DNA of 64,000 nt from an uncultured Actinomycetes bacterium (GCA_963797565.1 CAWCPM010000002.1:321560-385559), one strand, 5' to 3'; counted from the first letter of the stretch, positions 33,917 to 46,283 are shown. Translations and numbers: made by a program. The notes: a model not told the origin generated them from the letters alone.

Positions 33917-33989
33917 GGCGCCGTGACCGAGTGGCTCAGGTAGCAGGTTGCAACCCTGCTCTAGGACGGTTCGATTCCGTCCGGCGCCT
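33917..33989 (+). tRNA. tRNA-Cys(GCA)
   Basis: Acceptor ggcgccg/cggcgcc, anticodon stem gcagg/cctgc with loop ttGCAac, T arm gacgg-ttcgatt-ccgtc. No encoded CCA. Confidence 0.85.
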
Positions 33990-34031
33990 CTCCGGATCCG
34001 CGGGATAGTTGATAGGTAACACCGATACCGT

Positions 34032-34104
34032 GGGGTGGTAGCTGAGACGGTCCAAGCGCCCGGTTGAAGCCCGGGAGACGAGGATTCGAGCGCCTCTCAC
34101 CCCA
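34032..34104 (+). tRNA. tRNA-Phe(GAA), atypical T stem
   Basis: Acceptor ggggtgg/tcacccc, anticodon stem cccgg/ccggg with loop ttGAAgc. T arm gagga-ttcgagc-gcctc has an A-G mismatch at the normally G53-C61 pair. Confidence 0.65.
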
Positions 34105-34119
34105 CCTTTTGACACCTTT

Positions 34120-34191
34120 GGGGGTGTGGCTCAGTGGCAGAGCATCCGCTTGTCGAGCGGTAGGTCGCGAGTTCGATTCTCGCCATCCCCG
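34120..34191 (+). tRNA. tRNA-Asp(GTC)
   Basis: Acceptor gggggtg/catcccc, D stem gctc/gagc, loop ttGTCga, T arm gcgag-ttcgatt-ctcgc. Confidence 0.8.
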
Positions 34192-34216
34192 TGCAGTAAC
34201 GGACGTTTCACCACAC

Positions 34217-34299
34217 ACCGGCATGGCGGAATGGGTAGACGCGCTGGTCTCAGAAACCAGTGGAGATTCTCCGTGGGGGTTCGACTCCCTCTGCCGGTA
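34217..34299 (+). tRNA. tRNA-Leu(CAG), type II
   Basis: Acceptor accggca/tgccggt (A1-U72), D region gcggaatgggtagacgc, anticodon stem ctggt/accag with loop ctCAGaa, long variable arm ggagattctcc, T arm ggggg-ttcgact-ccctc. Confidence 0.85.
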
Positions 34300-34312
34300 C
34301 TCGCTGAGCTTC

Positions 34313-34388
34313 GGGGGATGGGACTGCTGGGAGTGGTCACTCGGTTTGCACCCGGGACTACAGGCGGGTTCGATGCCCGCATCCTCCA
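34313..34388 (+). tRNA. tRNA-Ala(TGC), atypical variable region
   Basis: Acceptor gggggat/atcctcc, anticodon stem ctcgg/ccggg with loop ttTGCac, T arm gcggg-ttcgatg-cccgc. The 7-nt variable region and a one-nt 8-9 connector are unusual. Confidence 0.65.
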
Positions 34389-34408
34389 CTCGCACGTGCA
34401 CGACACTT

Positions 34409-34482
34409 GCCCTCGTAGCTCAATGGACCAGAGTGCCAGGCTTCGAACCTGGTGGTTGGAGGTTCGAATCCTCCCGAGGGCT
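34409..34482 (+). tRNA. tRNA-Arg(TCG)
   Basis: Acceptor gccctcg/cgagggc, D arm tagctcaatggaccagagt, anticodon stem ccagg/cctgg with loop ctTCGaa, T arm ggagg-ttcgaat-cctcc. Confidence 0.88.
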
Positions 34483-34489
34483 TCGCGAT

Positions 34490-34573
34490 GGGGATGCACT
34501 GGGAATGCGGCGATCCCAAGTGGCTGTAAACCACCCGCCTCCGGCTCTGGCAGTTCGACTCTGTCCGTCCCCA
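34490..34573 (+). tRNA. tRNA-Tyr(GTA), type II
   Basis: Acceptor ggggatg/cgtcccc, loop ctGTAaa, variable arm gcc-tcc-ggc, T arm ggcag-ttcgact-ctgtc. Confidence 0.8.
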
Positions 34574-34583
34574 CTCATCAAAT

Positions 34584-34656
34584 GCCTCTGTAGTTCACTG
34601 GACAGAACGCGAGCGTGCGAAGCTCGAGGCCGGAGGTTCGATTCCTCCCAGAGGCG
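34584..34656 (+). tRNA. tRNA-Arg(GCG)
   Basis: Acceptor gcctctg/cagaggc, anticodon stem cgagc/gctcg with loop gtGCGaa, T arm ggagg-ttcgatt-cctcc. G34 rather than the usual bacterial A34. Confidence 0.8.
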
Positions 34657-34666
34657 TGCACCCCAC

Positions 34667-34738
34667 GGCGAGTGGGGTCTGGCGATCCGGCAGCTCTCAT
34701 ACGGCTGCGCCAAGCCGGTTCGATTCCGGCGCTCGCTA
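34667..34738 (+). tRNA. tRNA-Met(CAT)-like, atypical D arm
   Basis: Acceptor ggcgagt/gctcgct (G1-U72 and U7-G66 wobbles), anticodon stem cagct/ggctg with loop ctCATac, T arm gccgg-ttcgatt-ccggc. The D arm folds as 5 bp plus a 4-nt loop. Initiator, elongator or Ile2 identity cannot be decided. Confidence 0.55.
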
Positions 34739-34743
34739 TCCAT

Positions 34744-34818
34744 GGTGGCCGTAGCTCAAAACGGTAGAGCCCCTGGTTGTGGACCAGGCGGTTGCCGGTT
34801 CGAACCCGGCCGGTCACC
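34744..34818 (+). tRNA. tRNA-His(GTG) with encoded G-1
   Basis: G-1 at 34744 opposite C73. Acceptor gtggccg/cggtcac, D stem gctc/gagc, loop ttGTGga, T arm gccgg-ttcgaac-ccggc. Confidence 0.88.
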
Positions 34819-34831
34819 CCTCCTGACACCC

Positions 34832-34903
34832 AGGGGCGTGATGTAAAGGCCAGCATGCGAGGCTCCAACCCTCGTCGTCCGGGTTCGACCCCTGGCGCCC
34901 CTG
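34832..34903 (+). tRNA. tRNA-Trp(CCA)
   Basis: Acceptor aggggcg/cgcccct (A1-U72), anticodon stem cgagg/cctcg with loop ctCCAac, T arm ccggg-ttcgacc-cctgg. The only member followed by CCA (34904-34906). Confidence 0.8.
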
Positions 34904-34923
34904 CCAAGCGCTGCACCACCCCA

Positions 34924-35017
34924 GTCGCGGGCCGACGCACGTCGGTTCTCGTGGACCCACTCACAATGGGGCCGGGTTCGATCCCCGGCATTCCGGCATG
35001 CACCTCATGACCGCGAC
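34924..35017 (+). ncRNA. tRNA-derived RNA 1 (Y-RNA-like paralog; not a functional tRNA fold)
   Basis: Has a 5' acceptor-like strand gggccga, D arm cacg-tcggttct-cgtg, a hairpin with loop ctcacaa and T arm ccggg-ttcgatc-cccgg. It has no variable region and no 3' acceptor strand. The ends gtcgcgg/ccgcgac pair 7/7, and the flanks are shared with element 2. Confidence 0.5.
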
Positions 35018-35036
35018 GCTGACGACGCAAACGCCC

Positions 35037-35170
35037 GACGCGGGCCGACGCGCACTGGTTACCACTGTGAATGGTCCAGGTAGCAGGTTCGACTCCTGCC
35101 CGGCCGGAGCGATCCGGCCAGTAGCTCAACGGTAGAGCGGGAACTCCAGTCCGCACCACATGACCGCGTC
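35037..35170 (+). ncRNA. YrlA-type Y RNA candidate (circularly permuted tRNA-like RNA)
   Basis: Order along the strand: ggtcc, 5-nt aggta, T arm gcagg-ttcgact-cctgc (35083-99), ccggccg, loop gagcgatc, cggccag (a closed acceptor-like helix), ta, D arm gctc-aacggta-gagc (35124-38), g, ggaac. The terminal stem gacgcgg/ccgcgtc pairs 7/7. It ends 36 nt before the rsr ATG. Confidence 0.7.
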
Positions 35171-35206
35171 ATTCCATCCACTCGATCTCCCGAAAGGAGG
35201 CCACCC

Positions 35207-36871
35207 ATGTCGTATCTGACCCGACTCCACAACCTCGCGACCACACAGCGCGAGCGCCTGCGCACCGACCAGGTGCCGAACTCCGAGGGCGGCTACGTCT
35301 GGGAGGTCGACATCTGGACGCGGCTGCGCCGGTTCCTGATCCTCGGCTCCGAGGCCGGCTCGTTCTACGCGTCGGAGCGGAAGCTGACGATCGCAAACAC
35401 ACGAGCGCTCGATGCCTGCATCGAACAGGACGGCGCCCGCACCGTCGAGCTGATCGCCGAGATCAGCGAGGCCGGCCGGGCACCGAAGAACGACCCGGCC
35501 GTGTACGCGCTGGCACGATGCGCGTCGGCGGCCGACGTCGTCACACGCCGGGCGGCGCTGGCAGCCCTGCCGCGAGTGTGCCGAACCGGCACCCACCTGT
35601 TCCAGTTCGCGACCATCGTGAACGAGCAGCGCGGATGGGGCCGGGCGCTGCGGCGCGCGGTGGGAGCGTGGTACGCAGCACGGGACGCGGACGCGATCGC
35701 CTACCAGGCGGTCAAGTACCGCCAGCGGGAGGGGTTCACCCACCGCGACGTGCTGCGGCTCGCGCACCCGGCGCGGCTGGTCTCGGCCGGCAACCCGACG
35801 CTGGACATCTCGACCGAGCAGGCTCGCCTGTTCGAGTGGATCGTCCGGGGCGGGGACACCGACGGGCTGCCGCGCATCGTCGAGGGCTACACCCGCGCAC
35901 AGCGGGCCGGATCGGCCGATGAGGCCGCCCGGCTGGTGCGTGAGTACCAGCTGCCGCGGGAGGCGCTGCCGTCGGAGCACCTGACCAGCTCCGCGGTTTG
36001 GGAGGCGCTGCTCGAGACGATGCCGATGACGGCGATGATCCGGAACCTGGCGACGATGACGCGCGTGGGCCTGCTCACGCCGGGATCGCCGTCGGTGCGG
36101 CTGATCACCGAGCGGCTGTCGGATGGCGCGCGGATCCGCAAGGCCCGCGTCCACCCGATCGCGCTGCTGGTGGCGGCGCGCACCTACGCCTCCGGGCGGG
36201 GTGTCCGCGGCCACGCCTCCTGGACGCCGGTAACCGCCATCGTCGACGCGCTCGACGAGGCCTTCTACCTCGCGTTCGGGAACGTCCAGCCGACCGGCAA
36301 GCGGCTGCTGCTCGCGCTCGACGTGTCGGGGTCGATGACCTTCGGCTCGATTGCGGGCATGCCGGGGCTCACGCCCCGGGACGCATCGGCAGCGATGGCG
36401 CTGGTCACGCTGGCCGTCGAGCGACACGTCGAGGTGGTCGGCTTCCACGCCGGCCGCGGCGGCTGGGTCGCTCGTCGTCGGGGACGGTTCCAGGGGCGCG
36501 CCGACGCCCTCACGCCGCTCCCGCTGTCGGCTCGGCAGCGCCTGGACGACGCGGTCCGCCGCGTGTCCGACCTGCCGTTCGGCGGCACCGACTGTGCCCT
36601 GCCGATGCGCTACGCGCTGGAGCAGGGACGGGCGGTCGACACGTTCGTGATCTACACCGACTCGGAGACCTGGGCTGGGGACATGCACCCGGCCGAGGCG
36701 CTGCGCCGCTACCGCCAGAGCACCGGCATCGCGGCACGGCTGGTCGTGGTCGGAATGGTCGCGAACCGCTTCACCATCGCCGACCCGAACGACGCCGGCA
36801 TGCTCGACGTCGTCGGGTTCGACACCTCGACACCGCAGGTGATCGGCGGGTTCGCCCGTGGCGAGCTGTAA
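35207..36871 (+). CDS. rsr: Ro60-related protein Rsr (TROVE + vWA domains)
   Basis: ..QVPNSEGGYVWEVDIWTRLRRFLILGSEAGSFYASERKLT..ISEAGRAPKNDPAVYALA.. closely follows the Rsr/Ro60 N-terminus as I remember it. The C-terminal vWA domain has a MIDAS motif, LLLALDVSGSM. SD GGAGG is upstream. Confidence 0.85.
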   Translation: MSYLTRLHNLATTQRERLRTDQVPNSEGGYVWEVDIWTRLRRFLILGSEAGSFYASERKLTIANTRALDACIEQDGARTVELIAEISEAGRAPKNDPAVYALARCASAADVVTRRAALAALPRVCRTGTHLFQFATIVNEQRGWGRALRRAVGAWYAARDADAIAYQAVKYRQREGFTHRDVLRLAHPARLVSAGNPTLDISTEQARLFEWIVRGGDTDGLPRIVEGYTRAQRAGSADEAARLVREYQLPREALPSEHLTSSAVWEALLETMPMTAMIRNLATMTRVGLLTPGSPSVRLITERLSDGARIRKARVHPIALLVAARTYASGRGVRGHASWTPVTAIVDALDEAFYLAFGNVQPTGKRLLLALDVSGSMTFGSIAGMPGLTPRDASAAMALVTLAVERHVEVVGFHAGRGGWVARRRGRFQGRADALTPLPLSARQRLDDAVRRVSDLPFGGTDCALPMRYALEQGRAVDTFVIYTDSETWAGDMHPAEALRRYRQSTGIAARLVVVGMVANRFTIADPNDAGMLDVVGFDTSTPQVIGGFARGEL

Positions 36872-36876
36872 CACGG

Positions 36877-36911
36877 CCCGGGCAGGGAGCGTTCGTGACT
36901 CCCTGCCCGGG
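36877..36911 (+). terminator. 13-bp perfect hairpin after rsr (cccgggcagggag-N9-ctccctgcccggg)
   Basis: Starts 6 nt after the rsr stop. No U-tract follows, so it could be a terminator, an attenuator or a processing/stability element. Confidence 0.5.
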
Positions 36912-36933
36912 GGCGGTCGAACGGCACGCACCT

Positions 36934-37006
36934 GGACGCATAGCTCAGCAGGTAGAGCGCTCGCCCGACATGCGAGAGGTGCCAGGTTCGACCCCTGGTG
37001 CGTCCA
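36934..37006 (+). tRNA. tRNA-Val(GAC) with C33
   Basis: Acceptor ggacgca/tgcgtcc, D arm tagctcagcaggtagagc, anticodon stem ctcgc/gcgag with loop ccGACat (C rather than U at position 33), T arm ccagg-ttcgacc-cctgg. Confidence 0.7.
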
Positions 37007-37008
37007 TT

Positions 37009-37082
37009 GCCCGCGTAGCTCAGAGGATGAGAGCGCTCCGCTCCTACCGGAGAAGCCGCACGTTCGAGTCGTGCCGCGGGCG
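37009..37082 (+). tRNA. tRNA-Arg(CCT)
   Basis: Acceptor gcccgcg/cgcgggc, anticodon stem ctccg/cggag with loop ctCCTac, T arm gcacg-ttcgagt-cgtgc. Only 2 nt after tRNA-Val. Confidence 0.88.
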
Positions 37083-37085
37083 CCT

Positions 37086-37158
37086 GGGGTCATAGCTCAA
37101 CTGGCAGAGCGCCCGGCTCTTAACCGGGAGGTTGGGGGATCGTTGCCCTCTGACCCCA
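37086..37158 (+). tRNA. tRNA-Lys(CTT), non-canonical T loop
   Basis: Acceptor ggggtca/tgacccc, D arm tagctcaactggcagagc, anticodon stem cccgg/ccggg with loop ctCTTaa. T arm ggggg-atcgttg-ccctc, where A and U replace the usual T54 and A58. Confidence 0.7.
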
Positions 37159-37178
37159 TCTGCGGGTCTGCACATCGT

Positions 37179-37262
37179 GGAAGCGATCCGGCTGGATCAG
37201 GAGCCTGTCTCGAAAACAGGTAGGAGGGTCACCTCTTGGGCGTTCGAGTCGCCCCGCTTCCG
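37179..37262 (+). tRNA. tRNA-Ser(CGA), type II
   Basis: Acceptor ggaagcg/cgcttcc, anticodon stem cctgt/acagg with loop ctCGAaa, long variable arm aggagggtcacctctt, T arm gggcg-ttcgagt-cgccc. Confidence 0.85.
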
Positions 37263-37321
37263 CTCGCCTTCGCGGTCTTCGACGGCATCCGGCCGACGCG
37301 GTGGCCCGGTAGAGTCGCGCG

Positions 37322-37909
37322 ATGGCAGACTTTGAGTGCGCAGTCGTTGCCGAGTCTGAGCGAGATCGGGCGACTCGCGTCCTGGTGTCGGCGTTCGAGG
37401 ATGACCCTGTTGAGCGCTGGCTCTATCCGGATGACGCCGTCTATCGAGACCATTTTCCGGCGTTCATCGCGGCGTTCGGCGGTGACGCGTTCCACGATCA
37501 GACCGTCTGGCGGCTGGGGGATTTCGACGCGGTGGCGTTCTGGTTTGCGCCGGGGCGCGAGCCAGATGGCGCCGCGGTGGTACGAGTACTGGTGGAGACG
37601 ACTGCCGAACATCTGCACGCTGATTCGTTCGCGACGTTGGAGCAGATGGCCGAGGGGCATCCCGCAGGCCAGCACTGGTACCTGCCGTGGTTTGGAGTGC
37701 AGCGCACCCTCCAGGGACGGGGACTCGGCACGCATCTCATGCGCCACTGCCTGGAGATCGTGGACGCGAGTGGCTTCCCGGCGTACCTGGAGACGCCGAA
37801 CCCGCGAACCGTGCCGTTCTACGAGCGCGCCGGATTCACGGTCACCGGGACTGCTCAGGCGGGAGCCTGCCCTCCGATCACCATGATGCAGCGGGCCCCG
37901 CGCAGATAG
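37322..37909 (+). CDS. GNAT family N-acetyltransferase
   Basis: Acetyl-CoA motif ..VQRTLQGRGLGTHLM.. and C-terminal ..YLETPNPRTVPFYERAGF... Confidence 0.8.
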   Translation: MADFECAVVAESERDRATRVLVSAFEDDPVERWLYPDDAVYRDHFPAFIAAFGGDAFHDQTVWRLGDFDAVAFWFAPGREPDGAAVVRVLVETTAEHLHADSFATLEQMAEGHPAGQHWYLPWFGVQRTLQGRGLGTHLMRHCLEIVDASGFPAYLETPNPRTVPFYERAGFTVTGTAQAGACPPITMMQRAPRR

Positions 37910-37954
37910 CGCGACTGCACGCGCGAGGCGCCCTTGACGACGGTGCCGGGAACG

Positions 37955-38042
37955 GGATGGGTGGCAGAGTGGGAATGCAGCGCCCTGCTACGGCGTAGGC
38001 CGGCCGCGAGCCGGTCCGCGGGTTCGATCCCCGCCCCATCCG
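37955..38042 (+). tRNA. tRNA-Ser(GCT), type II
   Basis: Acceptor ggatggg/cccatcc, anticodon stem gcgcc/ggcgt with loop ctGCTac, long variable arm ggccggccgcgagccggtc, T arm gcggg-ttcgatc-cccgc. Confidence 0.85.
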
Positions 38043-38056
38043 TCGACGCATGACTT

Positions 38057-38128
38057 TCCGGAGTGGCCGAGTGGACAGGCGCACGGTTGTTACCCGTGAC
38101 CACGTGGGTTCGATCCCTACCTCCGGAG
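38057..38128 (+). tRNA. tRNA-Asn(GTT)
   Basis: Acceptor tccggag/ctccgga (U1-A72), anticodon stem cacgg/ccgtg with loop ttGTTac, T arm gtggg-ttcgatc-cctac. Confidence 0.8.
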
Positions 38129-38139
38129 CTGGCTCAAAA

Positions 38140-38215
38140 GGGGGGCAGGTGTCCGTGGTCTTCGGCACGCTCGTCTGATACGCGAGAGGGCTTGGTTCGA
38201 CTCCAGGGTCCCCCA
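38140..38215 (+). tRNA. tRNA-Ile(GAT)
   Basis: Acceptor ggggggc/gtccccc, large 12-nt D loop, anticodon stem ctcgt/gcgag with loop ctGATac, T arm cttgg-ttcgact-ccagg. Confidence 0.78.
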
Positions 38216-38220
38216 CTCGA

Positions 38221-38291
38221 TGCGAGGTCGTCTAACGGCAGGACGCCTGGCTCTGACCCAGGTAATCGGGGTTCGAAACCCTGCCTCGCAG
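38221..38291 (+). tRNA. tRNA-Gln(CTG)
   Basis: Acceptor tgcgagg/cctcgca (U1-A72, as in bacterial tRNA-Gln), anticodon stem cctgg/ccagg with loop ctCTGac, T arm cgggg-ttcgaaa-ccctg. Confidence 0.82.
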
Positions 38292-38298
38292 CCATCAC

Positions 38299-38370
38299 GG
38301 CACCATCGGCTAACGGATAGGCCGCCGGGTTCTCAGTCCGGAGATCGGAGTTCGAATCTCCGTGGTGCTA
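38299..38370 (+). tRNA. tRNA-Glu(CTC)
   Basis: Acceptor ggcacca/tggtgct (G1-U72), anticodon stem ccggg/tccgg with loop ttCTCag, T arm cggag-ttcgaat-ctccg. Confidence 0.8.
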
Positions 38371-38377
38371 TCACCCT

Positions 38378-38450
38378 CGGGATGTGGCGCAGTTGGCAGC
38401 GCGCGCGGTTCGGGACCGCGAGGCCGCACGTTCGAATCGTGCCATCCCGA
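38378..38450 (+). tRNA. tRNA-Pro(CGG)
   Basis: Acceptor cgggatg/catcccg (C1-G72, typical of bacterial tRNA-Pro), D stem gcgc/gcgc, anticodon stem cgcgg/ccgcg with loop ttCGGga, T arm gcacg-ttcgaat-cgtgc. Confidence 0.88.
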
Positions 38451-38477
38451 CTCTAAAGAGTCGAAATCCCTAGACCC

Positions 38478-38549
38478 GCCTCCGATGTGTTTCTGGCAGC
38501 ACGCTCGGTTTGTACCCGAGAAGATACGGTTCGACTCCGTACGGAGGCT
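38478..38549 (+). tRNA. tRNA-Thr(TGT)
   Basis: Acceptor gcctccg/cggaggc, anticodon stem ctcgg/ccgag with loop ttTGTac, T arm tacgg-ttcgact-ccgta. Confidence 0.85.
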
Positions 38550-38551
38550 CT

Positions 38552-38884
38552 GGTGTCATCCGGAGGGCATCCCATCGCGGGCCGCGGCAGCGCGGCTCGA
38601 GGAAGGTCCGGACTCGCATGCGCGGGCGACCGCGCATCAAACCGCCCCGGGCGAATACCCCGGGCGACGCGCAGGTGGCGCTGCGCGGACGTGCCTGGCA
38701 ACAGCGACGATGACCGCCCCGGCCGCTCTGGCCGCGGATGCCGCGGGTGAAACGGGCTACAGGCAGCGGGCGAGCAACCCCAAGCGTCCGGTCTCACGAA
38801 GACCGGCAGGTCGGGGGCATAGATGGATGATGGGACGCGCCTCGGCGCCGACAGAATCCGGCCTATCGCCCCCCGGCTGACACC
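38552..38884 (+). ncRNA. rnpB: RNase P RNA, bacterial type A
   Basis: P1 ggtgtcatccggaggg / ccccccggctgacacc. Conserved blocks: cGAGGAAgGTCCGGaCtC (P4 5' strand), atCAAACCGCC, GGGTGAAACGGG, GGCAACAG, GAGCAACCCCAA, TAGATGGATGA, ACAGAATCCGGCCTATCG. About 333 nt. Confidence 0.85.
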
Positions 38885-38894
38885 GCATCACCGA

Positions 38895-38966
38895 GCGACC
38901 GTGGTCAAACGGCAACGACTCCTGGCCTCCAACCAGGCGATACGGGTTCGATCCCCGTCGGTCGCT
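38895..38966 (+). tRNA. tRNA-Gly(TCC) with C33
   Basis: Acceptor gcgaccg/cggtcgc, anticodon stem cctgg/ccagg with loop ccTCCaa (C at position 33), T arm acggg-ttcgatc-cccgt. Confidence 0.7.
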
Positions 38967-39030
38967 CCTCGTTCTCGATCGGTACCGGCGCGACCGCCGT
39001 CGCGATAGGCTGGTTCGGGGTGATCGTGCG

Positions 39031-40266
39031 ATGGAGGACCTTCCCAGCGGAACCGTCACACTCCTCTTCACCGACGTCGAAGGGTCGACGTTGCTCGTCC
39101 AGGCGCTGGGTGCCGCCTACCAGTACGCGCTGGACGGGCACCGCCAGATCCTGAGGGACGCGGTCGCGTCGCACGCGGGCCGCGAGGTGGATTGCCGCGC
39201 CGACGAGTTCCTGGCCTGCTTCCCACGCGCATCCGACGGCCTGGCGGCGGCGATCGCCGCGCAGCTGGCGCTGACGTCGGAGGATTCCCAGCTGCGGGTG
39301 CGGATGGGACTTCACACCGGTGAGCCGGAGCTGATCGGCAACGCGTACATCGGGATCGATGTCAACCGGGCATCGCGAATCTGCGCGGCCGGCCACGGCG
39401 GGCAGATCCTGGTGTCCCAGACCACCCGCGATCTGGCGTCGACAGCCGTCCAGTTCCGCGATCTCGGCACCTACCTGCTCGCCGGCGTCGAGCAGGCCGA
39501 GCGGATCTTCGAGGTGCGCGCCCCCGGTCTGCGCACCTCGTCGCTGCCGCTCCGGGCCGAGCACGACACGGGTACCCCGGTCCGCCGCCGGCGTGGCCTG
39601 CGGCCGCGGCGCGCGCCGGCCTCGTCGCAGCTCGCCGAGACCGCCTGGCGGGCACGGAAGCTGGTCGAGCCGGGGCCGCTCCGTGACGCGCTCACGGGGC
39701 TTGCGGCGGCGCTGTTCGACGCCGACCGCGCCGTCCACCGAGCCGAAGCGCTGCTGGGGAAGATCGACCGCCACCGCATCGCCCGCAGGTTGGCCGAGCA
39801 GCGCGAGCTGTCGCTCGTGTCTCCCCCGGTGGCCGAGCTTGCCGCCGGGACAGACGCGAAGCTGGCCTGCCTCGACCGTCTCGGCGATGACGCCCAGGTC
39901 GTATCCGACCTGGGCGCCGAGGCTGCCGCGCTGCTCGATCGGTCATTCAGCGCCCACGCGGTCGAGCAGATCTGTGAACGGCTGAACCTGGCGATAGGCA
40001 CCCTGGACGGGCAGATCACGGTCACCGCCCGCGCGCACGACGCGCTCAGCTACCGGTTGGCGCGCACCCGCTGGCGCGGCGTGTACCGGCTGGACGCGCT
40101 CTACGTCGTCCCCTACCACGACGAGCTGGGGATCGAGCGCCAGCCCGAGTTCACGGACGCCGGTGAGGCCCGCCGCTTCCGCGAAGGCGTCAAGCTGGCC
40201 CGCCAGGCCAGGAATCGAGGACTCGGCTTCGACCTTCCATGGGATGGATCATCGGGTGGGTCCTGA
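39031..40266 (+). CDS. class III adenylate/guanylate cyclase-domain protein with uncharacterised C-terminal half
   Basis: N-terminal ..GTVTLLFTDVEGSTLLVQ..DEFLACF..RVRMGLHTGEP..GIDVNRASRICAAGHGGQILVS.. is a CYTH-unrelated class III cyclase fold. Residues from about 190 to 411 are helical and Arg/Ala-rich with no motif recognised. Confidence 0.65.
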   Translation: MEDLPSGTVTLLFTDVEGSTLLVQALGAAYQYALDGHRQILRDAVASHAGREVDCRADEFLACFPRASDGLAAAIAAQLALTSEDSQLRVRMGLHTGEPELIGNAYIGIDVNRASRICAAGHGGQILVSQTTRDLASTAVQFRDLGTYLLAGVEQAERIFEVRAPGLRTSSLPLRAEHDTGTPVRRRRGLRPRRAPASSQLAETAWRARKLVEPGPLRDALTGLAAALFDADRAVHRAEALLGKIDRHRIARRLAEQRELSLVSPPVAELAAGTDAKLACLDRLGDDAQVVSDLGAEAAALLDRSFSAHAVEQICERLNLAIGTLDGQITVTARAHDALSYRLARTRWRGVYRLDALYVVPYHDELGIERQPEFTDAGEARRFREGVKLARQARNRGLGFDLPWDGSSGGS

Positions 40267-40295
40267 CTCAAACGGGTCGCCGGCCGCCCGTGCTC

Positions 40296-40369
40296 GCGCG
40301 AGTAGCTCAGCCAGGTAGAGCACCTGCGCCACATGCAGGGTGCCGGCGGTTCGAACCCGTCCTCGCGCA
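40296..40369 (+). tRNA. tRNA-Val(CAC) with C33
   Basis: Acceptor gcgcgag/ctcgcgc, D arm tagctcagccaggtagagc, anticodon stem cctgc/gcagg with loop gcCACat (C at position 33), T arm ggcgg-ttcgaac-ccgtc. Abuts the protease gene stop. Confidence 0.7.
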
Positions 40370-43300
40370 TTACGACAGGGAGACGGTTGCGCTGCCCGTG
40401 TAGTCGTTGTACGGGTCGAGCACGATCGTGTAGGTGCCGGCCACCGGCGCCGTCAGCCCGAACGAGGTCGAGCCCAGCACCCACGACGGCGACAGCAGCG
40501 CCGTGCCGTCCGGACGCAGCACCGAGACGCGCATGATCGGGACGCTGACCGCGCTCAGGTTCAGCATCAGCGACTGCCCGGCCGTGGCAGTGAACGTGAC
40601 CGCCCCACCCTGGCCGGGAGCATTCATCGCAGCCGTGAACCCAGGCCCGCCCTGCGTGATCGACCCGGCCGCATCCGGCGGCACGTCGTAGACGGTCACC
40701 GACAACGGTCCTGTTGAGGCGTCGAACGGATCCACGGCGATGGTGTAGGTGCCGGACACCGGCAGCGTGGTCACGTCGATGAAGGTGTTACCCGGCGCCA
40801 TGGTCGCGAGCAGGATCGTGGCGTCCGGCTTGCTGACGGTGAACCGCACCGACATCGCCGTCGTGAGGCGGAAGCTGACCCGCTCGCCGGCCACGCCGTT
40901 GAAGCTGACGAGCCCGTTCTGGCCGGGCACCGTGATCGGGATCGAGGCCGCGGCGCCGCCGGGCGTGGTCGTCGCAGACGCGTCGGCCGGGACGCTGAAG
41001 GCGGTCAGCGTCATCGTCACCGCCGAGCCGCCCGACGGGTCGATCACGATCGTGTAGGTGCCGGTGGCCGGCAGCGTGTGGGTGTCGAGGAAACCGCCCG
41101 ACGAGGAGACGTAGAAGGTCGCGAAGATGGAGCCGTCCGGCGCGCGCACATCGAGCCGCGTCTGCGGCAGCGCGCTGCCGGTGACCGTCATGCTCATCCG
41201 CGTGCCGGCCACCCCGGCGAACGTGATGCCGGCGTTCTGTCCGGCGCCCAGCGAGATCGTGAGCGGCGCTCCGCCCACGGTGATGCTGCCGGTGAGATCG
41301 ACCGGCACACCCAGCACCTGGACGGTGGCGCTGCCCACCGCCGCCCCCTGCGGATCGATGCGGATCGTGTAGGTGCCGCTGGCCGGAAGCGCGATCGCGT
41401 CGATGAAGCCGCCCGAGCCGTAGGCGATGGTGGAGCCCGCAGGTGACACCAGCGTCACCGACGTGGCGGCCATGCCGGAGGTGCTGTAGCTGACGCTGAC
41501 CGACTGGCCGGCCGCGCCCGGGAACGTGACCGAGGCGTTCTGGCCGGGCACCGTGGTGGTGAGCGTGACCGGTGCTGCTGCCACCGAGGTGGTCGCCGTC
41601 GGATCGGGCGGCACGTCGTACAGCGTGTAGCTGACGCTGCCGGTGCCGACGTCCTGGGGGTCGGCCACCACCGTGTAGGTGCCGGTCTGCTTGAGCGTGG
41701 CCGCGTCCACGAACGAGGTGCCGGCGCCGGTGTAGCCCGGCCCCGCGAGCACCGTGCCGTCCGGGTTCAGGATCGACGTCTTCAGCAGGTAGAAGGTGGA
41801 GCTGACACCGAGGCTGACGCGCCGGCCGGCCACGCCGCTGAACGTGAACAGCGCGTTCTGGCCCGCCGCCGTTGTGGTGGCCGACGCGGGAGCGCCGCCC
41901 GGCGTGATGGTGGTCGTGACGTCGGGCGGCACGTCGTAGAGCGTCAGCGTGACCGGCCCGGTGCGCTCGTCCTGTGGGTCGGCCAGGATCGTGTACGTGC
42001 CGTCGGAGGGCAGCTGCACGGTGTCGATGAAACCGTTGCCGGCGCTCGTGTAGAGCGGCCCCGCCAGCTGCGTCCCGCCCGGCCCGATGATGATCGTCTT
42101 CAGGAAGCTGATGCTGCTGGACGTGGCCAGCGCCACCCGCCGCCCGGCCGCGCCCGTGAAGCTGGCGACCGCGTTCTGGCCGGGCACGGTGGTGGTCAGC
42201 GTCACCGGAGGCCCGCCGGGGCTGATCGCCGCCGTCGCATCCGGCGGCACGTTGAAGAGCTGGATCGCCATGCTGCCGCCGCCCGCCTGCAGCGGGTGCA
42301 CGCGCACCACGTAGCTGCCGGACTGCTGCAGCGTGAACGAGTCGATGAACGCGCTGCCGGTGGACAGCGTCTTCGAGGCGGCCGTGGACCCGTCCGGGTT
42401 GCTGATGGTGACGGTGCTGCTGGTGATCGTCGACGCCGACAGCAGGGCGCTCACGCGCGTGCCGGCGGTGCCGTCGAAGGCGAGCAGCTGGTCCTCGCCG
42501 GCACCCGAGGTGACGGTGACCGGCGCTCCGCCGATCACGATCGGGCTCGGCGATACGCCGGTGACGCTGCCGCTGTCGGTGCCGCCGCTGCTGGTGGCCG
42601 TGGCGGTAACGGTGGTGCTGCCCGGGGCGGGCGTGAACTGGCCGGTGTAGCTGCCGTCGCCCTGGGCCGTCAGCGCGACCGGCTGGCCGTTGGCGGCCGC
42701 GGTGACGGTCACGCCCGCGAGGTCGCCGCAGACGCCGGCCAGCAGGCGCACGGTCACCGGGTGGCCGGCGGCGGCCACGAAGCCCTGGCCGGGAGCGTCG
42801 ATCACCAGCTGCGGCTTGTTGCTGCAGGTGAGCGCGTTTCCGGCGTCGAGACGGCCCTGGCTGGCGCTGGTGCCGGCGAGTGCCGCGGGGCGGTCGACCG
42901 TGCGCAGCAGCAGCGCCTTGATGGTGTCGGCGGTGGCGGCCGGATGCGCGGCCAGCACCAGCGCGGCCGCACCGGCCACGTGAGGCGAGGCCATCGAGGT
43001 GCCGCTCTCGGACTTGTAGGCCTTGCCCGGCCAGGTCGAGTAGATGCTGACGCCGGGCGCCGCCAGATCGACGCTGCTCTGCCCGTAGTTCGAGAAGTAG
43101 GCGAGATGGTCGGTCGAGTCGCTGGCACCCACCGAGATGATGTTGGGCAGATCGAAGTCGGCCGGGTAGGTGGGCGTCGTATCGCTGTTCGTGCCGTCGT
43201 TGCCTGCAGCGGCAACGAACAGGTCGCCGTGCGCGTTCGCGTCGGCGATGGCGTCATACAGGGCCTGCGAGTACTCGGTGTCGCCCCAGGAGTTGTTCGT

Positions 43301-44930: not shown

Positions 44931-46283
44931 ATGACCGACCGGCCGGCAACCACGATGGTGGTCGAGGATCGGCCCTACCGCGAGCTCGACGACGGGCTGA
45001 TCGGTGTCTACGGCTACACCTACGACGAGCAGGCGATCACCCAGATCCGCACCGTGTCGCGGCACGGCTGGGTGGCCGGCGCGTCGCTGATGGCCGACAA
45101 CCACGTCGGCTACTCGATGCCGATCGGCGGAGTCGCCGCGTACCGCGAGATGGTCTCGCCCTCGGGCGTCGGCTACGACATCGGCTGCGGCGTGATGGCG
45201 GTGCGCACGGCGCTATCGATCGACGAGGTGCGGGGCGACCTGGGACGGCTGGCCGACGAGATCGCGCGCGGCCTCAGCTTCGGGGTCGGCCGCAAGAATG
45301 CCACCCGCGTCGAGCACCGGCTGTTCGACTCGGAGACATGGGCCGCGGTCCCGGAGCTGACCGAGCAGGTCGCCGGGCGCAAGGGCTCGTGGTCGCTGCG
45401 GGAGCGCGCGGAGGCGCAGCTGGGCACGGTCGGATCCGGCAACCACTACGTCGACCTGCTGGTCGAGCCGGCCGACGGCGCGGTCTGGATCGCCGCACAC
45501 TTCGGCAGCCGCGGCTTCGGCCACGGTGTGGCGACGGGCTTCCTGAACGTCGCAGCGGGCCGCGAGTTCCACGCCGGGCAGATCAGCGGCGAGTCGATGC
45601 ACGCCGTGCCGTCGCTGCTGCCGCTATCGGAGGCGGCGGCGGTCGAGCTCGGCTACGCCGACCCGGCCTGGGCGGCGGAGCAGGGCCGCCGGTATCAGCA
45701 GGCGATGGTGCTGGCCGGCGAGTACGCCTATGCCGGGCGGGAGTACGTGATCTCGGAGGTGCTGGGCATGTTGGGAGCTCCGGAGGTGGTCGAGACGGTG
45801 CACAACCACCACAACTACGCGTGGGATGAGGAGCACGCCGGCGAGCAGCTGCACGTGGTTCGCAAGGGCGCGACGCCCGCGTTCCCGGGCCAGACCGGGT
45901 TCATCGGCGGCTCGATGGGTGACTGGGCGGTCGTGGTCGAGGGCGTCGAGTCGGACCTGGCGGCACGGACCTTCCGCTCGACGGTGCACGGGGCGGGACG
46001 GGTTATGAGCCGCTCCAAGGCTAAGGGCAACCGCAAGGGCACCTTCAAGGGCCTGATCAGCCGGCAGATGATGGCCGAGCGGCTGCATGAGTTCCGAGCC
46101 GAAACCGGCTCGCCGCTCGAGGTGCGAGGCGGCGACGTGGACGAGTCGCCGTTCGTGTACCGGAAGCTGGACGAGGTCGTGCGGGCGCACGAGCAGACCG
46201 ACACCATCAAGGTCACCCATCGGCTGCTGCCGATCGTGGTCGTGATGGCGGGCGCCGACGTGCACGATCCGTTCAAGGACTAG
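44931..46283 (+). CDS. rtcB: RNA 3'-phosphate/5'-OH ligase RtcB
   Basis: ..ADNHVGYSMPIGGV.., ..GYDIGCG.., ..GSGNHY.., ..HNHHNY.., ..GSMG.. metal and guanylylation-site motifs. SD GGAAGGAGG is upstream. Confidence 0.9.
   Translation: MTDRPATTMVVEDRPYRELDDGLIGVYGYTYDEQAITQIRTVSRHGWVAGASLMADNHVGYSMPIGGVAAYREMVSPSGVGYDIGCGVMAVRTALSIDEVRGDLGRLADEIARGLSFGVGRKNATRVEHRLFDSETWAAVPELTEQVAGRKGSWSLRERAEAQLGTVGSGNHYVDLLVEPADGAVWIAAHFGSRGFGHGVATGFLNVAAGREFHAGQISGESMHAVPSLLPLSEAAAVELGYADPAWAAEQGRRYQQAMVLAGEYAYAGREYVISEVLGMLGAPEVVETVHNHHNYAWDEEHAGEQLHVVRKGATPAFPGQTGFIGGSMGDWAVVVEGVESDLAARTFRSTVHGAGRVMSRSKAKGNRKGTFKGLISRQMMAERLHEFRAETGSPLEVRGGDVDESPFVYRKLDEVVRAHEQTDTIKVTHRLLPIVVVMAGADVHDPFKD

What the first reader, a model, noticed from the sequence alone, without database searches (positions are those of the whole stretch)
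34924..35170. Two tandem tRNA-derived RNAs with conserved ends and a compensatory base change, sitting as members of a tRNA array
Seen: elements 1 (34924-35017) and 2 (35037-35170) share the 5' block g[t/a]cgcgggccgacgc and the 3' block gcacc[t/a]catgaccgcg[a/t]c. The terminal helix is gTcgcgg/ccgcgAc in element 1 and gAcgcgg/ccgcgTc in element 2, a T-A to A-T swap that preserves pairing.

Element 1 keeps normal tRNA order (5' acceptor strand gggccga, D arm cacg-tcggttct-cgtg, a hairpin with loop ctcacaa, T arm ccggg-ttcgatc-cccgg). It lacks a variable region and any 3' acceptor strand. Element 2 is permuted.

Known: Salmonella carries two Y RNAs (yrlB, yrlA) in the rsr-yrlBA-rtcBA operon, and the tRNA-like module of Y RNAs has been proposed to derive from tRNA.

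Inference: two Y-RNA-like genes lying in series with bona fide tRNAs would be a snapshot of that origin. Element 1 could be a second Y RNA or a decaying intermediate.
Basis: partly seen in the sequence, partly recalled or inferred. Interest (0 to 1): 0.8.

Follow-up and report, generated by a model that had tools for sequence, protein, structure and literature searches.

The report
Two Y RNA genes beside Ro60
The two elements are real: they are a pair of Y RNAs, the small RNAs that dock onto the Ro60/Rsr RNA quality-control protein, lying just upstream of the rsr gene inside a long tRNA gene array, which is a new example of a known arrangement, not a new kind of RNA.

Summary
Elements 1 (34924-35017) and 2 (35037-35170) share their ends exactly as described, and those ends occur nowhere else in the 64 kb window.

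The shared ends are not tRNA acceptor remnants. They are the two strands of the conserved Ro60-binding stem of bacterial Y RNAs. The gene 37 nt downstream (35207-36871) encodes Rsr/Ro60 (TROVE plus vWA_Ro60 domains). RtcB lies at 44931-46283.

Element 2 is a YrlA-type Y RNA with a T arm, a closed acceptor-like stem and a D arm. Covariation in 25 homologues supports this structure. Element 2 scores below Rfam's YrlA threshold.

Element 1 is a second Y RNA with the same stem, one small hairpin and a T arm. This resembles M. smegmatis YrlB and D. radiodurans Yrn1.

The T-A to A-T "swap" is present in the window, but the five closest relatives have A·C at that position.

Tandem Y RNAs next to rsr, sometimes adjacent to tRNAs, are already published (Chen 2014; Wang 2018). 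Among 159 related rsr loci, 54 lie in same-strand arrays of at least 8 tRNAs. Neither element resembles a neighbouring tRNA specifically, so this is not a "snapshot" of origin.

Verdict: new member of a known kind, with moderate interest.

The parts
33917..34906 (+). First block of the tRNA array. It holds 10 tRNAs called by ARAGORN (Cys, Phe, Asp, Leu, Ala, Arg, Arg, Met, His, Trp). An uncalled tRNA-Tyr(gta) homologue lies at about 34490-34574.
   Evidence: ARAGORN. Rfam tRNA matches. The Tyr homologue aligns with tRNA-Tyr genes called in L005 and L001.
34924..35017 (+). Element 1: a Y RNA of the short, T-arm-only type (YrlB/Yrn1-like).
   Evidence: Model R1 matches it end to end at 44.4 bits, E 4e-8, and it was not in the seed. 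Rfam Deinococcus_Y_RNA aligns end to end but weakly: 21.4 bits, E 0.18. It is conserved in L005, L161, L162, L168, L165, L160, L002 and L090.
34924..34945 (+). El1 5' strand of the Ro60-binding stem. It has the terminal helix GUCGCGG, the motif GGCCGA with a bulged C10, and the inner stem GCACGUCGG.
   Evidence: Sequence. Same register as the family consensus. Protected positions in Yrn1 from Chen 2014.
34956..34970 (+). El1 small hairpin CCCA-CUCACAA-UGGG with a 7-nt anticodon-like loop.
   Evidence: Sequence and fold. The loop varies between C and G in close relatives. Deeper relatives have a hairpin of different sequence at this place.
34972..34988 (+). El1 T-arm mimic CCGGG-UUCGAUC-CCCGG.
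   Evidence: Compensatory change to CCAGG/CCUGG in L005, L161, L162 and L168. G-C to C-G flips in L160, L002 and L090.
34993..35017 (+). El1 3' strand of the stem (CCGGCAUGCACCUCAUGACCGCGAC).
35037..35170 (+). Element 2: a YrlA-type Y RNA, consisting of the Ro60-binding stem plus a permuted tRNA-like domain.
   Evidence: Rfam YrlA matches 35075-35143 at 35.4 bits, E 3e-6, below the gathering score of 69. R1 scores it at 117.8 bits. The structure is supported by covariation in 25 homologues.
35037..35058 (+). El2 5' strand of the Ro60-binding stem.
35061..35075 (+). El2 'V' hairpin ACCA-CUGUGAA-UGGU.
   Evidence: Compensatory variants are seen by eye: CCG/CGG in L082 and CGA/UCG in L084, L002 and L090. 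The formal count on the MAFFT columns gives only 36% paired, because this part is poorly aligned and is absent in Verrucomicrobia.
35083..35099 (+). El2 T arm GCAGG-UUCGACU-CCUGC.
   Evidence: 99% of cells paired. Two of its five pairs each have 12 of 25 sequences changed on both sides.
35100..35121 (+). El2 closed acceptor-like stem: 9 positions with one C·A mismatch, capped by a GCGA tetraloop.
   Evidence: All 5 tested pairs covary and 95% of cells are paired.
35124..35138 (+). El2 D arm GCUC-AACGGUA-GAGC.
   Evidence: Invariant in all 25 homologues. Matches the YrlA consensus.
35146..35170 (+). El2 3' strand of the stem (CCAGUCCGCACCACAUGACCGCGUC).
35207..36871 (+). rsr, the Ro60 orthologue (554 aa). 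A GGAGG ribosome-binding site lies 8 nt upstream.
   Evidence: Pfam TROVE 7e-46 and vWA_Ro60 2e-60. Homologues are named 60 kDa SS-A/Ro ribonucleoprotein or TROVE protein, from Gaiellales.
36933..40369 (+). Second part of the tRNA array, with 12 tRNAs. It is interrupted by a GNAT gene (37322-37909), an RNase P RNA-like element (38559-38881) and a cyclase-domain gene (39031-40266).
44931..46283 (+). RtcB RNA ligase, the usual partner of rsr and Y RNAs. Here a subtilase gene on the opposite strand (40370-44209) separates it from the array.
   Evidence: Pfam RtcB 1.4e-70. In the 97%-identical relative L162, RtcB follows the cyclase gene directly.

Best explanation
El1 and El2 are two paralogous Y RNA genes belonging to an rsr (Ro60) and RtcB RNA quality-control and repair module. 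That module is embedded in a long tRNA gene array of a Gaiellales-like actinobacterium.

Proposed mechanism:
- Both RNAs are probably transcribed together with the neighbouring tRNAs and rsr as one same-strand precursor, then trimmed (inferred).
- Each folds so that its 5' and 3' ends pair into a long stem. This stem carries the conserved GGGCCGA / YGACC helix with a bulged C, which is the docking site for the outer surface of the Rsr ring (inferred from homology).
- The distal ends differ. El2 carries a circularly permuted tRNA mimic, with a T arm, a closed acceptor-like stem and a D arm. El1 carries only a small hairpin and a T arm.
- By analogy with D. radiodurans, S. Typhimurium and M. smegmatis, these distal modules recruit or gate different partners, such as PNPase or tRNA-binding enzymes. 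In this way they set which damaged or misfolded RNAs Rsr handles (inferred).

Shown here: sequence anatomy, conservation, covariation and gene neighbourhood. Not shown: expression, processing, Rsr binding and function.
For: - Rsr is encoded 37 nt downstream on the same strand, and RtcB lies at 44931-46283.
- El2 hits Rfam YrlA over the T, acceptor-like and D arm core with E 3e-6.
- A model built from 25 YrlA-type relatives scores El1, which was not in the seed, at 44.4 bits, end to end. The next hits in the 64 kb window are only tRNA-tRNA junctions at 26.8 bits or less.
- The proposed structure is 85% paired, against 36-50% for slid controls. Its covariation score is 0.388 against at most 0.11. 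It has 136 doubly changed cells against at most 27.
- The 5' motif G-Y-R-G-G-Y-Y-G...GGUU(A/C/U)(C/U)C occurs 194 times in 159 rsr loci, always on the rsr strand.
- Model hits number 155 in 62 of 79 genome loci, all on the rsr strand.
- The same model finds unannotated tandem Y RNAs 5' of Ro in Gordonia phage Cashline (104 and 81 bits) and mycobacteriophage Catera (81 and 27 bits).
- El1's T stem shows a compensatory change within the species-level clade and G-C to C-G flips in deeper relatives.
- Positions G7, G8, C9, G11 and A12 coincide with the nucleotides Rsr protects in Yrn1 (Chen 2014).
- Published precedent: M. smegmatis YrlA and YrlB are processed from one precursor 5' of rsr, and D. 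radiodurans makes a Yrn2-tRNAAsp-Yrn1 polycistron.
Against: - There are no expression or binding data.
- Both Rfam matches are below their gathering scores: YrlA 35.4 against 69, and Deinococcus_Y_RNA 21.4 against 80.
- The motif reads GCCGACG, not the published GNCGAAN0-1G.
- G8 faces an A (G·A) in this clade, where other phyla have G-C or G·U.
- The comparative structures are less stable than the computed minimum-energy folds: -28.7 against -40.7 kcal/mol for El1 and -46.2 against -55.6 kcal/mol for El2. Fold z-scores are only -1.6.
- At the shortest distances El1 diverges by 5-7%, about as fast as rsr third codon positions at 8%. Constraint on El1 therefore rests on the pattern of changes and on deeper relatives, not on rate.
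- No promoter-like or terminator-like sites were found, so co-transcription is only inferred.
Confidence: 0.85

Rival explanations
1. El1 (or both elements) is a decaying tRNA or Y RNA pseudogene left in the array, with no function of its own.
For: El1 lacks the acceptor-like stem and the D arm. Among 96-99% relatives it diverges by 5-7%, close to the 8% seen at rsr third codon positions. Its Rfam match is weak.
Against: There are no indels in El1 among close relatives. Two of the five differences from L005 form a compensatory pair in the T stem. An element with the same terminal helix GUCGCGG/CCGCGAC, a hairpin and a T arm persists in L160 (87% Rsr identity) and in L002 and L090 (67-68%), with T-stem flips. 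T-arm-only Y RNAs make up about a quarter of the family, 50 of 194. M. smegmatis YrlB is an Rsr-bound RNA of this kind.
Confidence: 0.05
2. The two elements are cis-acting structures in the rsr mRNA leader, for example sites where Rsr binds to regulate its own synthesis, and not free RNAs.
For: They lie directly 5' of rsr on the same strand. No promoter or terminator was detected between them and rsr. El2 ends only 25 nt before the ribosome-binding site.
Against: In related loci, elements with the same motif lie downstream of rsr (L018 at 7735 and 8063; L012 at 7847) or are separated from it by another ORF (L002). In M. smegmatis, D. radiodurans and S. Typhimurium the homologues accumulate as discrete Rsr-bound RNAs.
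Confidence: 0.07
3. El2 is a permuted pre-tRNA that is processed into a real, chargeable tRNA, as happens with the permuted tRNA genes of some algae.
For: It has complete T and D arms and a long closed acceptor-like stem of 9 positions. M. smegmatis YrlA is cut by RNase P and receives CCA. Wang 2018 raise this possibility. An RNase P RNA-like gene lies in the same array.
Against: El2 has no anticodon arm in the tRNA position. The stem that would have to be excised is the most conserved part of the RNA and carries the Ro60 motif. No bacterial splicing endonuclease is known for this step.
Confidence: 0.03
4. The shared flanks are a generic genomic repeat (REP- or MITE-like) unrelated to rsr.
For: None beyond the fact that the block occurs twice.
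Against: There are only two copies in 64 kb, and near-matches are fewer than chance predicts. In 159 related loci every one of the 194 motif hits is on the rsr strand.
Confidence: 0.01

Closest known systems
Mycobacterium smegmatis YrlA and YrlB (Chen et al. 2014, RNA 20:1715)
   Same: An actinobacterium with two Y RNAs 5' of rsr on the same strand. One has a T arm, a long (7 bp) acceptor-like stem and a D arm (YrlA, like El2). The other has only a T arm (YrlB, like El1). They are processed from one precursor. The published YrlB probe target matches the first element of relative L001.
   Different: The order is reversed: here the short element comes first and the YrlA type second. Here the pair is flanked by tRNA genes on both sides of the rsr module. 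The motif reads GCCGACG instead of GNCGAA(N)G. Similarity of the window's own El1 to YrlB is architectural only.
Salmonella Typhimurium rsr-yrlBA-rtcBA operon; Rfam YrlA RF02553
   Same: Rsr, two Y RNAs and RtcB occur in one neighbourhood. El2 aligns to the YrlA T, acceptor-like and D arm core. YrlA has a permuted tRNA fold shown by crystallography (Wang 2018).
   Different: The Y RNAs are upstream of rsr here, not downstream. The score is below Rfam's gathering threshold, and the stem part of the Rfam model does not align. No RtcR or sigma-54 context was seen. RtcB lies 8 kb away, behind an inserted protease gene.
Deinococcus radiodurans Yrn1/Yrn2 (Rfam RF01053)
   Same: El1 has the Yrn1 layout: a long stem, a single-stranded stretch, a small hairpin, then a T arm followed by CAU. 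It shares the T-arm sequence CCGGGUUCGAU(U/C)CCCGGCAU and the numbering of the Rsr-protected nucleotides. In D. radiodurans the Y RNAs are co-transcribed with a tRNA.
   Different: The match is only 21.4 bits (E 0.18). The 3' strand of the binding helix has G·A instead of G-C. A stronger Yrn1-like element (48.5 bits) lies in the verrucomicrobial locus L023, not in this window.
Y RNAs of actinobacteriophages that encode Ro (mycobacteriophage Bxz1/Catera/ET08 group, Gordonia phages)
   Same: Two tandem Y RNAs lie immediately 5' of the Ro gene and are found by the same model at 81-104 bits. The Rsr proteins are 47-51% identical.
   Different: In Catera only two tRNA genes lie within 5 kb of Ro (about 2.8 kb upstream), so Ro is not embedded among them. 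The window looks chromosomal, with TypA/BipA and metabolic genes nearby.
Long tRNA arrays ('L-arrays', Santamaria-Gomez et al. 2021; 'tRNA array units', Tran et al. 2015)
   Same: 22-23 same-strand tRNAs in 6.5 kb meet the definition of at least 20 genes at 2 or more per kb. L-arrays are reported in Actinobacteria and Verrucomicrobia and are often linked to rtcB and other RNA-processing genes.
   Different: The papers on arrays that could be searched do not mention Ro60, TROVE or Y RNAs. Here rsr and its Y RNAs sit inside the array.

Membership tests
Bacterial Y RNA (Ro60-associated ncRNA) | Encoded within about 4 kb of a Ro60/TROVE gene and on the same strand (the criterion of Chen 2014). | tested here: met
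   El1 ends 189 nt and El2 ends 36 nt before the rsr start codon, on the same strand.
Bacterial Y RNA (Ro60-associated ncRNA) | The 5' and 3' ends pair into a long stem carrying the conserved Ro-binding helix (5' strand GNCGAAN0-1G, with a bulged C). | tested here: met
   Both elements have GGGCCGACG, one base off the published motif; L005's El2 has GCCGAAG. C10 is unpaired between C9-G and G11·U. The stem register is conserved and covaries in 25 homologues.
Bacterial Y RNA (Ro60-associated ncRNA) | Accumulates as a stable RNA bound by Ro60/Rsr. | not testable with these tools
   No transcript or binding data are available.
YrlA (Rfam RF02553) | Effector module in the order T arm, closed acceptor-like stem, D arm, with near-invariant T and D sequences. 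| tested here: met
   Met for El2 (T arm 35083-35099, acceptor-like stem 35100-35121, D arm 35124-35138). El1 lacks the acceptor-like stem and the D arm, so El1 is not a YrlA.
YrlA (Rfam RF02553) | Reaches Rfam's gathering score (69 bits). | tested here: not met
   35.4 bits over model positions 23-86 only. Relatives also fall below it, at 39-50 bits. The Rfam model does not fit the stem of this clade.
YrlA (Rfam RF02553) | [quoted passage not shown] | not testable with these tools
   Requires experiment.
Deinococcus Yrn1 (Rfam RF01053) | Stem, single-stranded stretch, small hairpin and T arm in tRNA order, with a significant match to the model. | tested here: inconclusive
   El1 aligns end to end (model 1-126) with the same layout and a near-identical T arm. 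The score is only 21.4 bits, E 0.18, against a gathering score of 80.
M. smegmatis YrlB-type (second Y RNA with a T arm only) | Rsr-binding stem plus a T arm without a D arm, encoded next to YrlA. | tested here: met
   The architecture is met for El1. Sequence similarity to the published YrlB probe target is clear for relative L001 but weak for the window's El1.
tRNA | Cloverleaf with a paired acceptor stem and an anticodon arm, recognised by tRNA finders. | tested here: not met
   Neither element is called by ARAGORN or by Rfam tRNA, even at E up to 10.
tRNA array unit / L-array | At least 20 tRNA genes at a density of at least 2 per kb, on one strand. | tested here: met
   22 called tRNAs plus 1 uncalled Tyr lie in 33917-40369 (6.45 kb), all on the + strand. 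The definition comes from Tran 2015 as quoted.

The most novel reading that the evidence does not exclude
The Rsr, Y RNA and RtcB module may be a regular built-in component of long, horizontally spreading tRNA arrays in many phyla (Actinobacteria, Verrucomicrobia, Polyangia, Chloroflexi and others).

On this reading, such arrays are self-contained 'spare tRNA set plus tRNA quality-control and repair' cassettes. They would also be the place where new Y RNA variants keep being made from tRNA parts. Two observations fit this:
- Some variants consist of a whole tRNA permuted within its D loop (L160, L087, L090).
- The YrlA model also hits tRNA-tRNA junctions.

In the window's lineage the cassette additionally carries its own divergent RNase P RNA.

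The array papers I could search do not mention Ro60 or Y RNAs. The Y RNA papers mention only 'one or more' adjacent tRNAs.
Probability: 0.3. Interest if true: 0.6.

Novelty: new member of a known kind. Interest (0 to 1): 0.35.

Why it matters
**Annotation.** The elements add an unannotated pair of Y RNAs, from a poorly studied soil actinobacterial order, to a family that current annotation misses. Every YrlA match in these loci is below Rfam's threshold.

**Y RNA evolution.** A YrlA-type and a Yrn1/YrlB-type Y RNA sit side by side here with the same Ro60-binding stem. This links two classes that Chen 2014 treated as independently evolved.

**tRNA arrays.** Many rsr relatives sit inside long tRNA arrays together with RtcB. 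This gives a concrete, testable idea for what both the cryptic arrays and bacterial Ro60 do: supply and police tRNAs when translation or tRNAs are under attack.

Tried and rejected
- **Rfam at gathering thresholds** found only tRNAs. Permissive searches were needed.
- **Single-sequence folding** was uninformative. Fold z-scores were -1.6. The minimum-energy folds contain pairs that sequester the Ro motif and are not conserved.
- **RNAalifold on the MAFFT alignment** missed the inner stem. It also proposed an invariant GCC/GGU pairing that has no covariation, so I tested a hand-derived structure instead.
- **Finding 3' ends by complementarity alone** gave wrong ends. It was replaced by an anchor on the invariant CCGC.
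- **The El1 D arm** was rejected.
- **A specific link between El1's anticodon-like loop (CAC/GAC) or T stem and the neighbouring tRNA-Val genes** was checked and rejected. The tRNA-Val(cac) T arm differs. Local alignment scores of El1 and El2 against all 23 array tRNAs are generic, at 13-21.
- **Promoter and terminator scans** found nothing.
- **Literature.** The reviews by Sim & Wolin (2018) and Sim et al. (2020), which may already describe tRNA-array contexts, are not held in the library. The supplementary tables of Chen 2014 are not held either. I therefore could not check whether any Thermoleophilia or Gaiellales species is already on their list.

Full report
**What is in the sequence**

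The window carries a dense same-strand tRNA array at 33917-40369, with 22 tRNAs called by ARAGORN. A 23rd gene, a tRNA-Tyr homologue at about 34490-34574, was not called in the window. It is one base different from the gene called in relative L005.

Eighteen nucleotides after tRNA-Trp comes El1 (34924-35017). Nineteen nucleotides later comes El2 (35037-35170). Thirty-six nucleotides after El2, behind a GGAGG ribosome-binding site, a 554-aa ORF begins (35207-36871). Pfam identifies this ORF as Ro60/Rsr, with TROVE at 7e-46 and vWA_Ro60 at 2e-60.

The array continues after rsr. It is interrupted by a GNAT gene, an RNase P RNA-like element and a cyclase-domain gene. RtcB lies at 44931-46283. In the relative L162, whose Rsr is 97% identical, RtcB follows the cyclase gene directly. 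In the window, then, RtcB has been separated from the array by an inserted subtilase gene on the other strand.

Upstream genes include TypA/BipA and metabolic enzymes. The closest Rsr proteins are named as coming from Gaiellales. The window therefore looks like the chromosome of a soil actinobacterium.

**Check of the observation**

They are not a dispersed repeat. Each has only its two copies in 64 kb, and looser matches are fewer than chance predicts.

**What the shared ends are**

The 5' block GCGGGCCGA...GGUU(A/C)(U/C)C is a motif found 194 times in 159 loci that encode relatives of this Rsr. Every occurrence is on the rsr strand. The phyla include Actinobacteria, Verrucomicrobia, Chloroflexi, Polyangia and others.

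The motif corresponds to the GNCGAAN0-1G Ro60-binding motif of Chen et al. 2014. Positions G7, G8, C9, G11 and A12 of both elements match the nucleotides that Rsr protects in D. radiodurans Yrn1.

The 3' block...CA(U/C)GACCGCG, is the partner strand. Across the family it reads (U/C)(U/C)G-N-CCGC.

To test pairing without circularity, I placed each 3' end only by the invariant CCGC. With ends defined this way, the first two positions outside the invariant core pair in 72% and 63% of 135 distinct elements. Shuffles give 44% and 41%, and none of 500 shuffles reached the observed values. The third position is not above the range of the shuffles.

**El2**

Rfam's YrlA model aligns to 35075-35143 across the T arm, acceptor-like stem and D arm. 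The match is 35.4 bits with E 3e-6, below the gathering score of 69.

I aligned 25 YrlA-type elements from related loci and tested a structure derived by inspection:
- 85% of cells are paired, against 36-50% when the partners are slid by 1-3 columns.
- 136 cells have changes on both sides, against 11-27 in the slid controls.
- The covariation score is 0.388, against 0.06-0.11.

The T arm, the acceptor-like stem, both parts of the inner stem and the innermost variable pair of the terminal helix all covary. The D arm is invariant.

El2's acceptor-like stem has 9 positions, with one C·A mismatch, and is closed by a GCGA loop. In this it resembles M. smegmatis YrlA, whose 7-bp stem makes it an RNase P substrate. 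Whether El2 is cleaved is unknown.

**El1**

The model built from those 25 sequences did not include El1. It nevertheless matches El1 end to end at 44.4 bits (E 4e-8). It aligns both stem strands in the family register and skips the missing acceptor-like stem and D arm.

El1 has the layout: stem, ten unpaired bases, a 4-bp hairpin with a 7-nt loop, a T arm, CAUU, then the 3' strand. This is the layout of D. radiodurans Yrn1. Rfam's Yrn1 model aligns end to end, though at only 21.4 bits. The T arm plus CAU is nearly identical to that of Yrn1 and to a stronger Yrn1-like element in the verrucomicrobial locus L023 (48.5 bits). It also fits the description of M. smegmatis YrlB, an Rsr-bound RNA with a T arm.

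- Three close relatives have CGGU in place of CGUG.
- CACG belongs to the inner stem, which pairs with CAUG on the 3' strand.

El1 is not a decaying copy:
- Among relatives with 96-99% identical Rsr it has no indels.
- Two of its five differences from L005 form a compensatory pair (CCGGG/CCCGG to CCAGG/CCUGG).
- Elements with the same terminal helix, a hairpin and a T arm occur in L160 (87% Rsr identity) and in L002 and L090 (67-68%), with G-C to C-G flips in the T stem.

Rate alone does not show constraint at the shortest distances. El1 differs by 5-7%, against 8% at rsr third codon positions.

**The 'compensatory swap'**

It is true in the window that helix position 2 is U-A in El1 and A-U in El2. 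However, El2 has A·C at that position in L005, L161, L162, L168 and L165. That column pairs in only 14 of 25 YrlA-type sequences. The stem is real and covaries, but this particular pair is weak evidence for it.

**Context and comparison with what is known**

Two or more Y RNAs next to rsr is the normal state:
- 63 of 159 loci have at least two motif hits.
- The model gives 155 hits in 62 of 79 genome loci, all on the rsr strand, with up to five or six per locus.
- Unannotated tandem pairs sit 5' of Ro in Gordonia phage Cashline and mycobacteriophage Catera.

Chen 2014 reported YrlA-like RNAs near Ro60 in 254 bacteria and 22 phages. That paper also reported at least two Y RNAs in each species studied, and a Yrn2-tRNAAsp-Yrn1 polycistron in D. 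radiodurans. [quoted passage not shown] They discuss an origin from dimeric tRNA transcripts.

It is not a snapshot of origin, for two reasons:
- The stem and the T/D modules are shared across phyla.
- El1 and El2 show no special similarity to any of the 23 neighbouring tRNAs.

The YrlA model does give weak hits on tRNA-tRNA junctions in the array, for example Met-His at 26.8 bits. This illustrates, but does not prove, the dimeric-tRNA model.

**A broader pattern**

Of the 159 rsr-related loci, 76 carry at least 3 same-strand tRNA genes and 54 carry at least 8. Polyangium loci reach 26-29.

Within the window's own clade the Y-rsr module sits at different places in otherwise syntenic arrays. 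It lies after Trp in the window but after Pro in L001 and L064.

Long tRNA arrays are known, and their linkage to rtcB has been reported. The array papers I could search do not mention Ro60 or Y RNAs. I could not read the two Wolin-laboratory reviews that might cover this.

**Mechanism**

Shown here: anatomy, conservation, covariation and neighbourhood.

Inferred from characterised homologues:
- co-transcription with the tRNAs and rsr, followed by processing;
- docking of the conserved stem on Rsr;
- use of the two different distal modules to recruit or gate different partners, such as PNPase or tRNA-binding enzymes, in a module that also includes RtcB.

No promoter-like or terminator-like sites were detected. 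This neither supports nor contradicts co-transcription in a high-GC actinobacterium.

**Verdict**

The finding is real and the reading as Y RNAs is right. The details about a D arm, an acceptor strand, a decisive compensatory pair and a 'snapshot of origin' are not supported. These are new members of a known kind. The finding is moderately interesting, mainly because of the array-wide association noticed along the way.

Noticed in passing
window 38559-38881 (+): An RNase P RNA-like gene lies inside the tRNA array, between tRNA-Thr and tRNA-Gly. It aligns full length to bacterial class A RNase P RNA, but at only 23.5 bits against a gathering score of 100. P1-P4 and the 3' P4 strand are conserved (GAGGAAgGUCCGGaCUC ... 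ACAGAAuCCGGCcUA). The specificity domain cannot be aligned. The element is also present in L080 (30.1 bits) but not in five other arrays searched. It may be either the organism's only, divergent, rnpB or an extra array-borne copy.
   Followed up: partly
159 related loci (L001-L159): Relatives of this Rsr very often sit inside same-strand tRNA arrays. 54 loci have at least 8 tRNAs and 76 have at least 3. Polyangium loci have 26-29. The searchable tRNA-array papers do not mention Ro60 or Y RNAs.
   Followed up: partly
L160 341-475; L087 284-418; L090 2055-2188: These are Y RNA variants in which a nearly complete tRNA appears to be permuted within the D loop and inserted in the Ro-binding stem. 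The order is D-stem 3' half, anticodon arm, variable loop, T arm, closed acceptor stem, then D-stem 5' half (GGUUAUC|GGUAGAGC ... UAGCUCA). ARAGORN calls part of one homologue as a tRNA.
   Followed up: no
L023 4695-5878: One verrucomicrobial rsr locus carries about six Y-RNA-like genes. They include a Yrn1-like element (Rfam Deinococcus_Y_RNA, 48.5 bits) and several YrlA-like ones. A 70-nt element reaches the gathering score of the nematode sbRNA family ceN72-3_ceN74-2 (39.4 against 38).
   Followed up: partly
window 44931-46283 and 40370-44209: An RtcB ligase gene belongs to the module. A 1279-aa subtilase gene on the opposite strand separates it from the array in the window. The relative L162, whose Rsr is 97% identical, has RtcB directly after the cyclase-domain gene.
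   Followed up: partly
window 34490-34574: A tRNA-Tyr(gta) homologue with a long variable arm is missed by ARAGORN in the window. It differs by one base from the tRNA-Tyr called in L005. Three tRNAs called by ARAGORN (Ala 34313, Met 34667, Ile 38140) are not found by Rfam's tRNA model even at E up to 0.1. This suggests that the array holds atypical tRNAs.
   Followed up: partly
L165 versus window, L161: L165 has an El1 identical to the window's, but its El2 and rsr differ from the window much as those of L161, L162 and L168 do. This suggests recombination within the module between closely related strains.
   Followed up: no
L001, L064 versus window: The Y-RNA-rsr module occupies different positions in otherwise syntenic arrays. 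It lies between Trp and Val(gac) in the window but after Pro in L001 and L064. In those relatives the second element is only about 72-76 nt long and lacks any tRNA-like domain.
   Followed up: no
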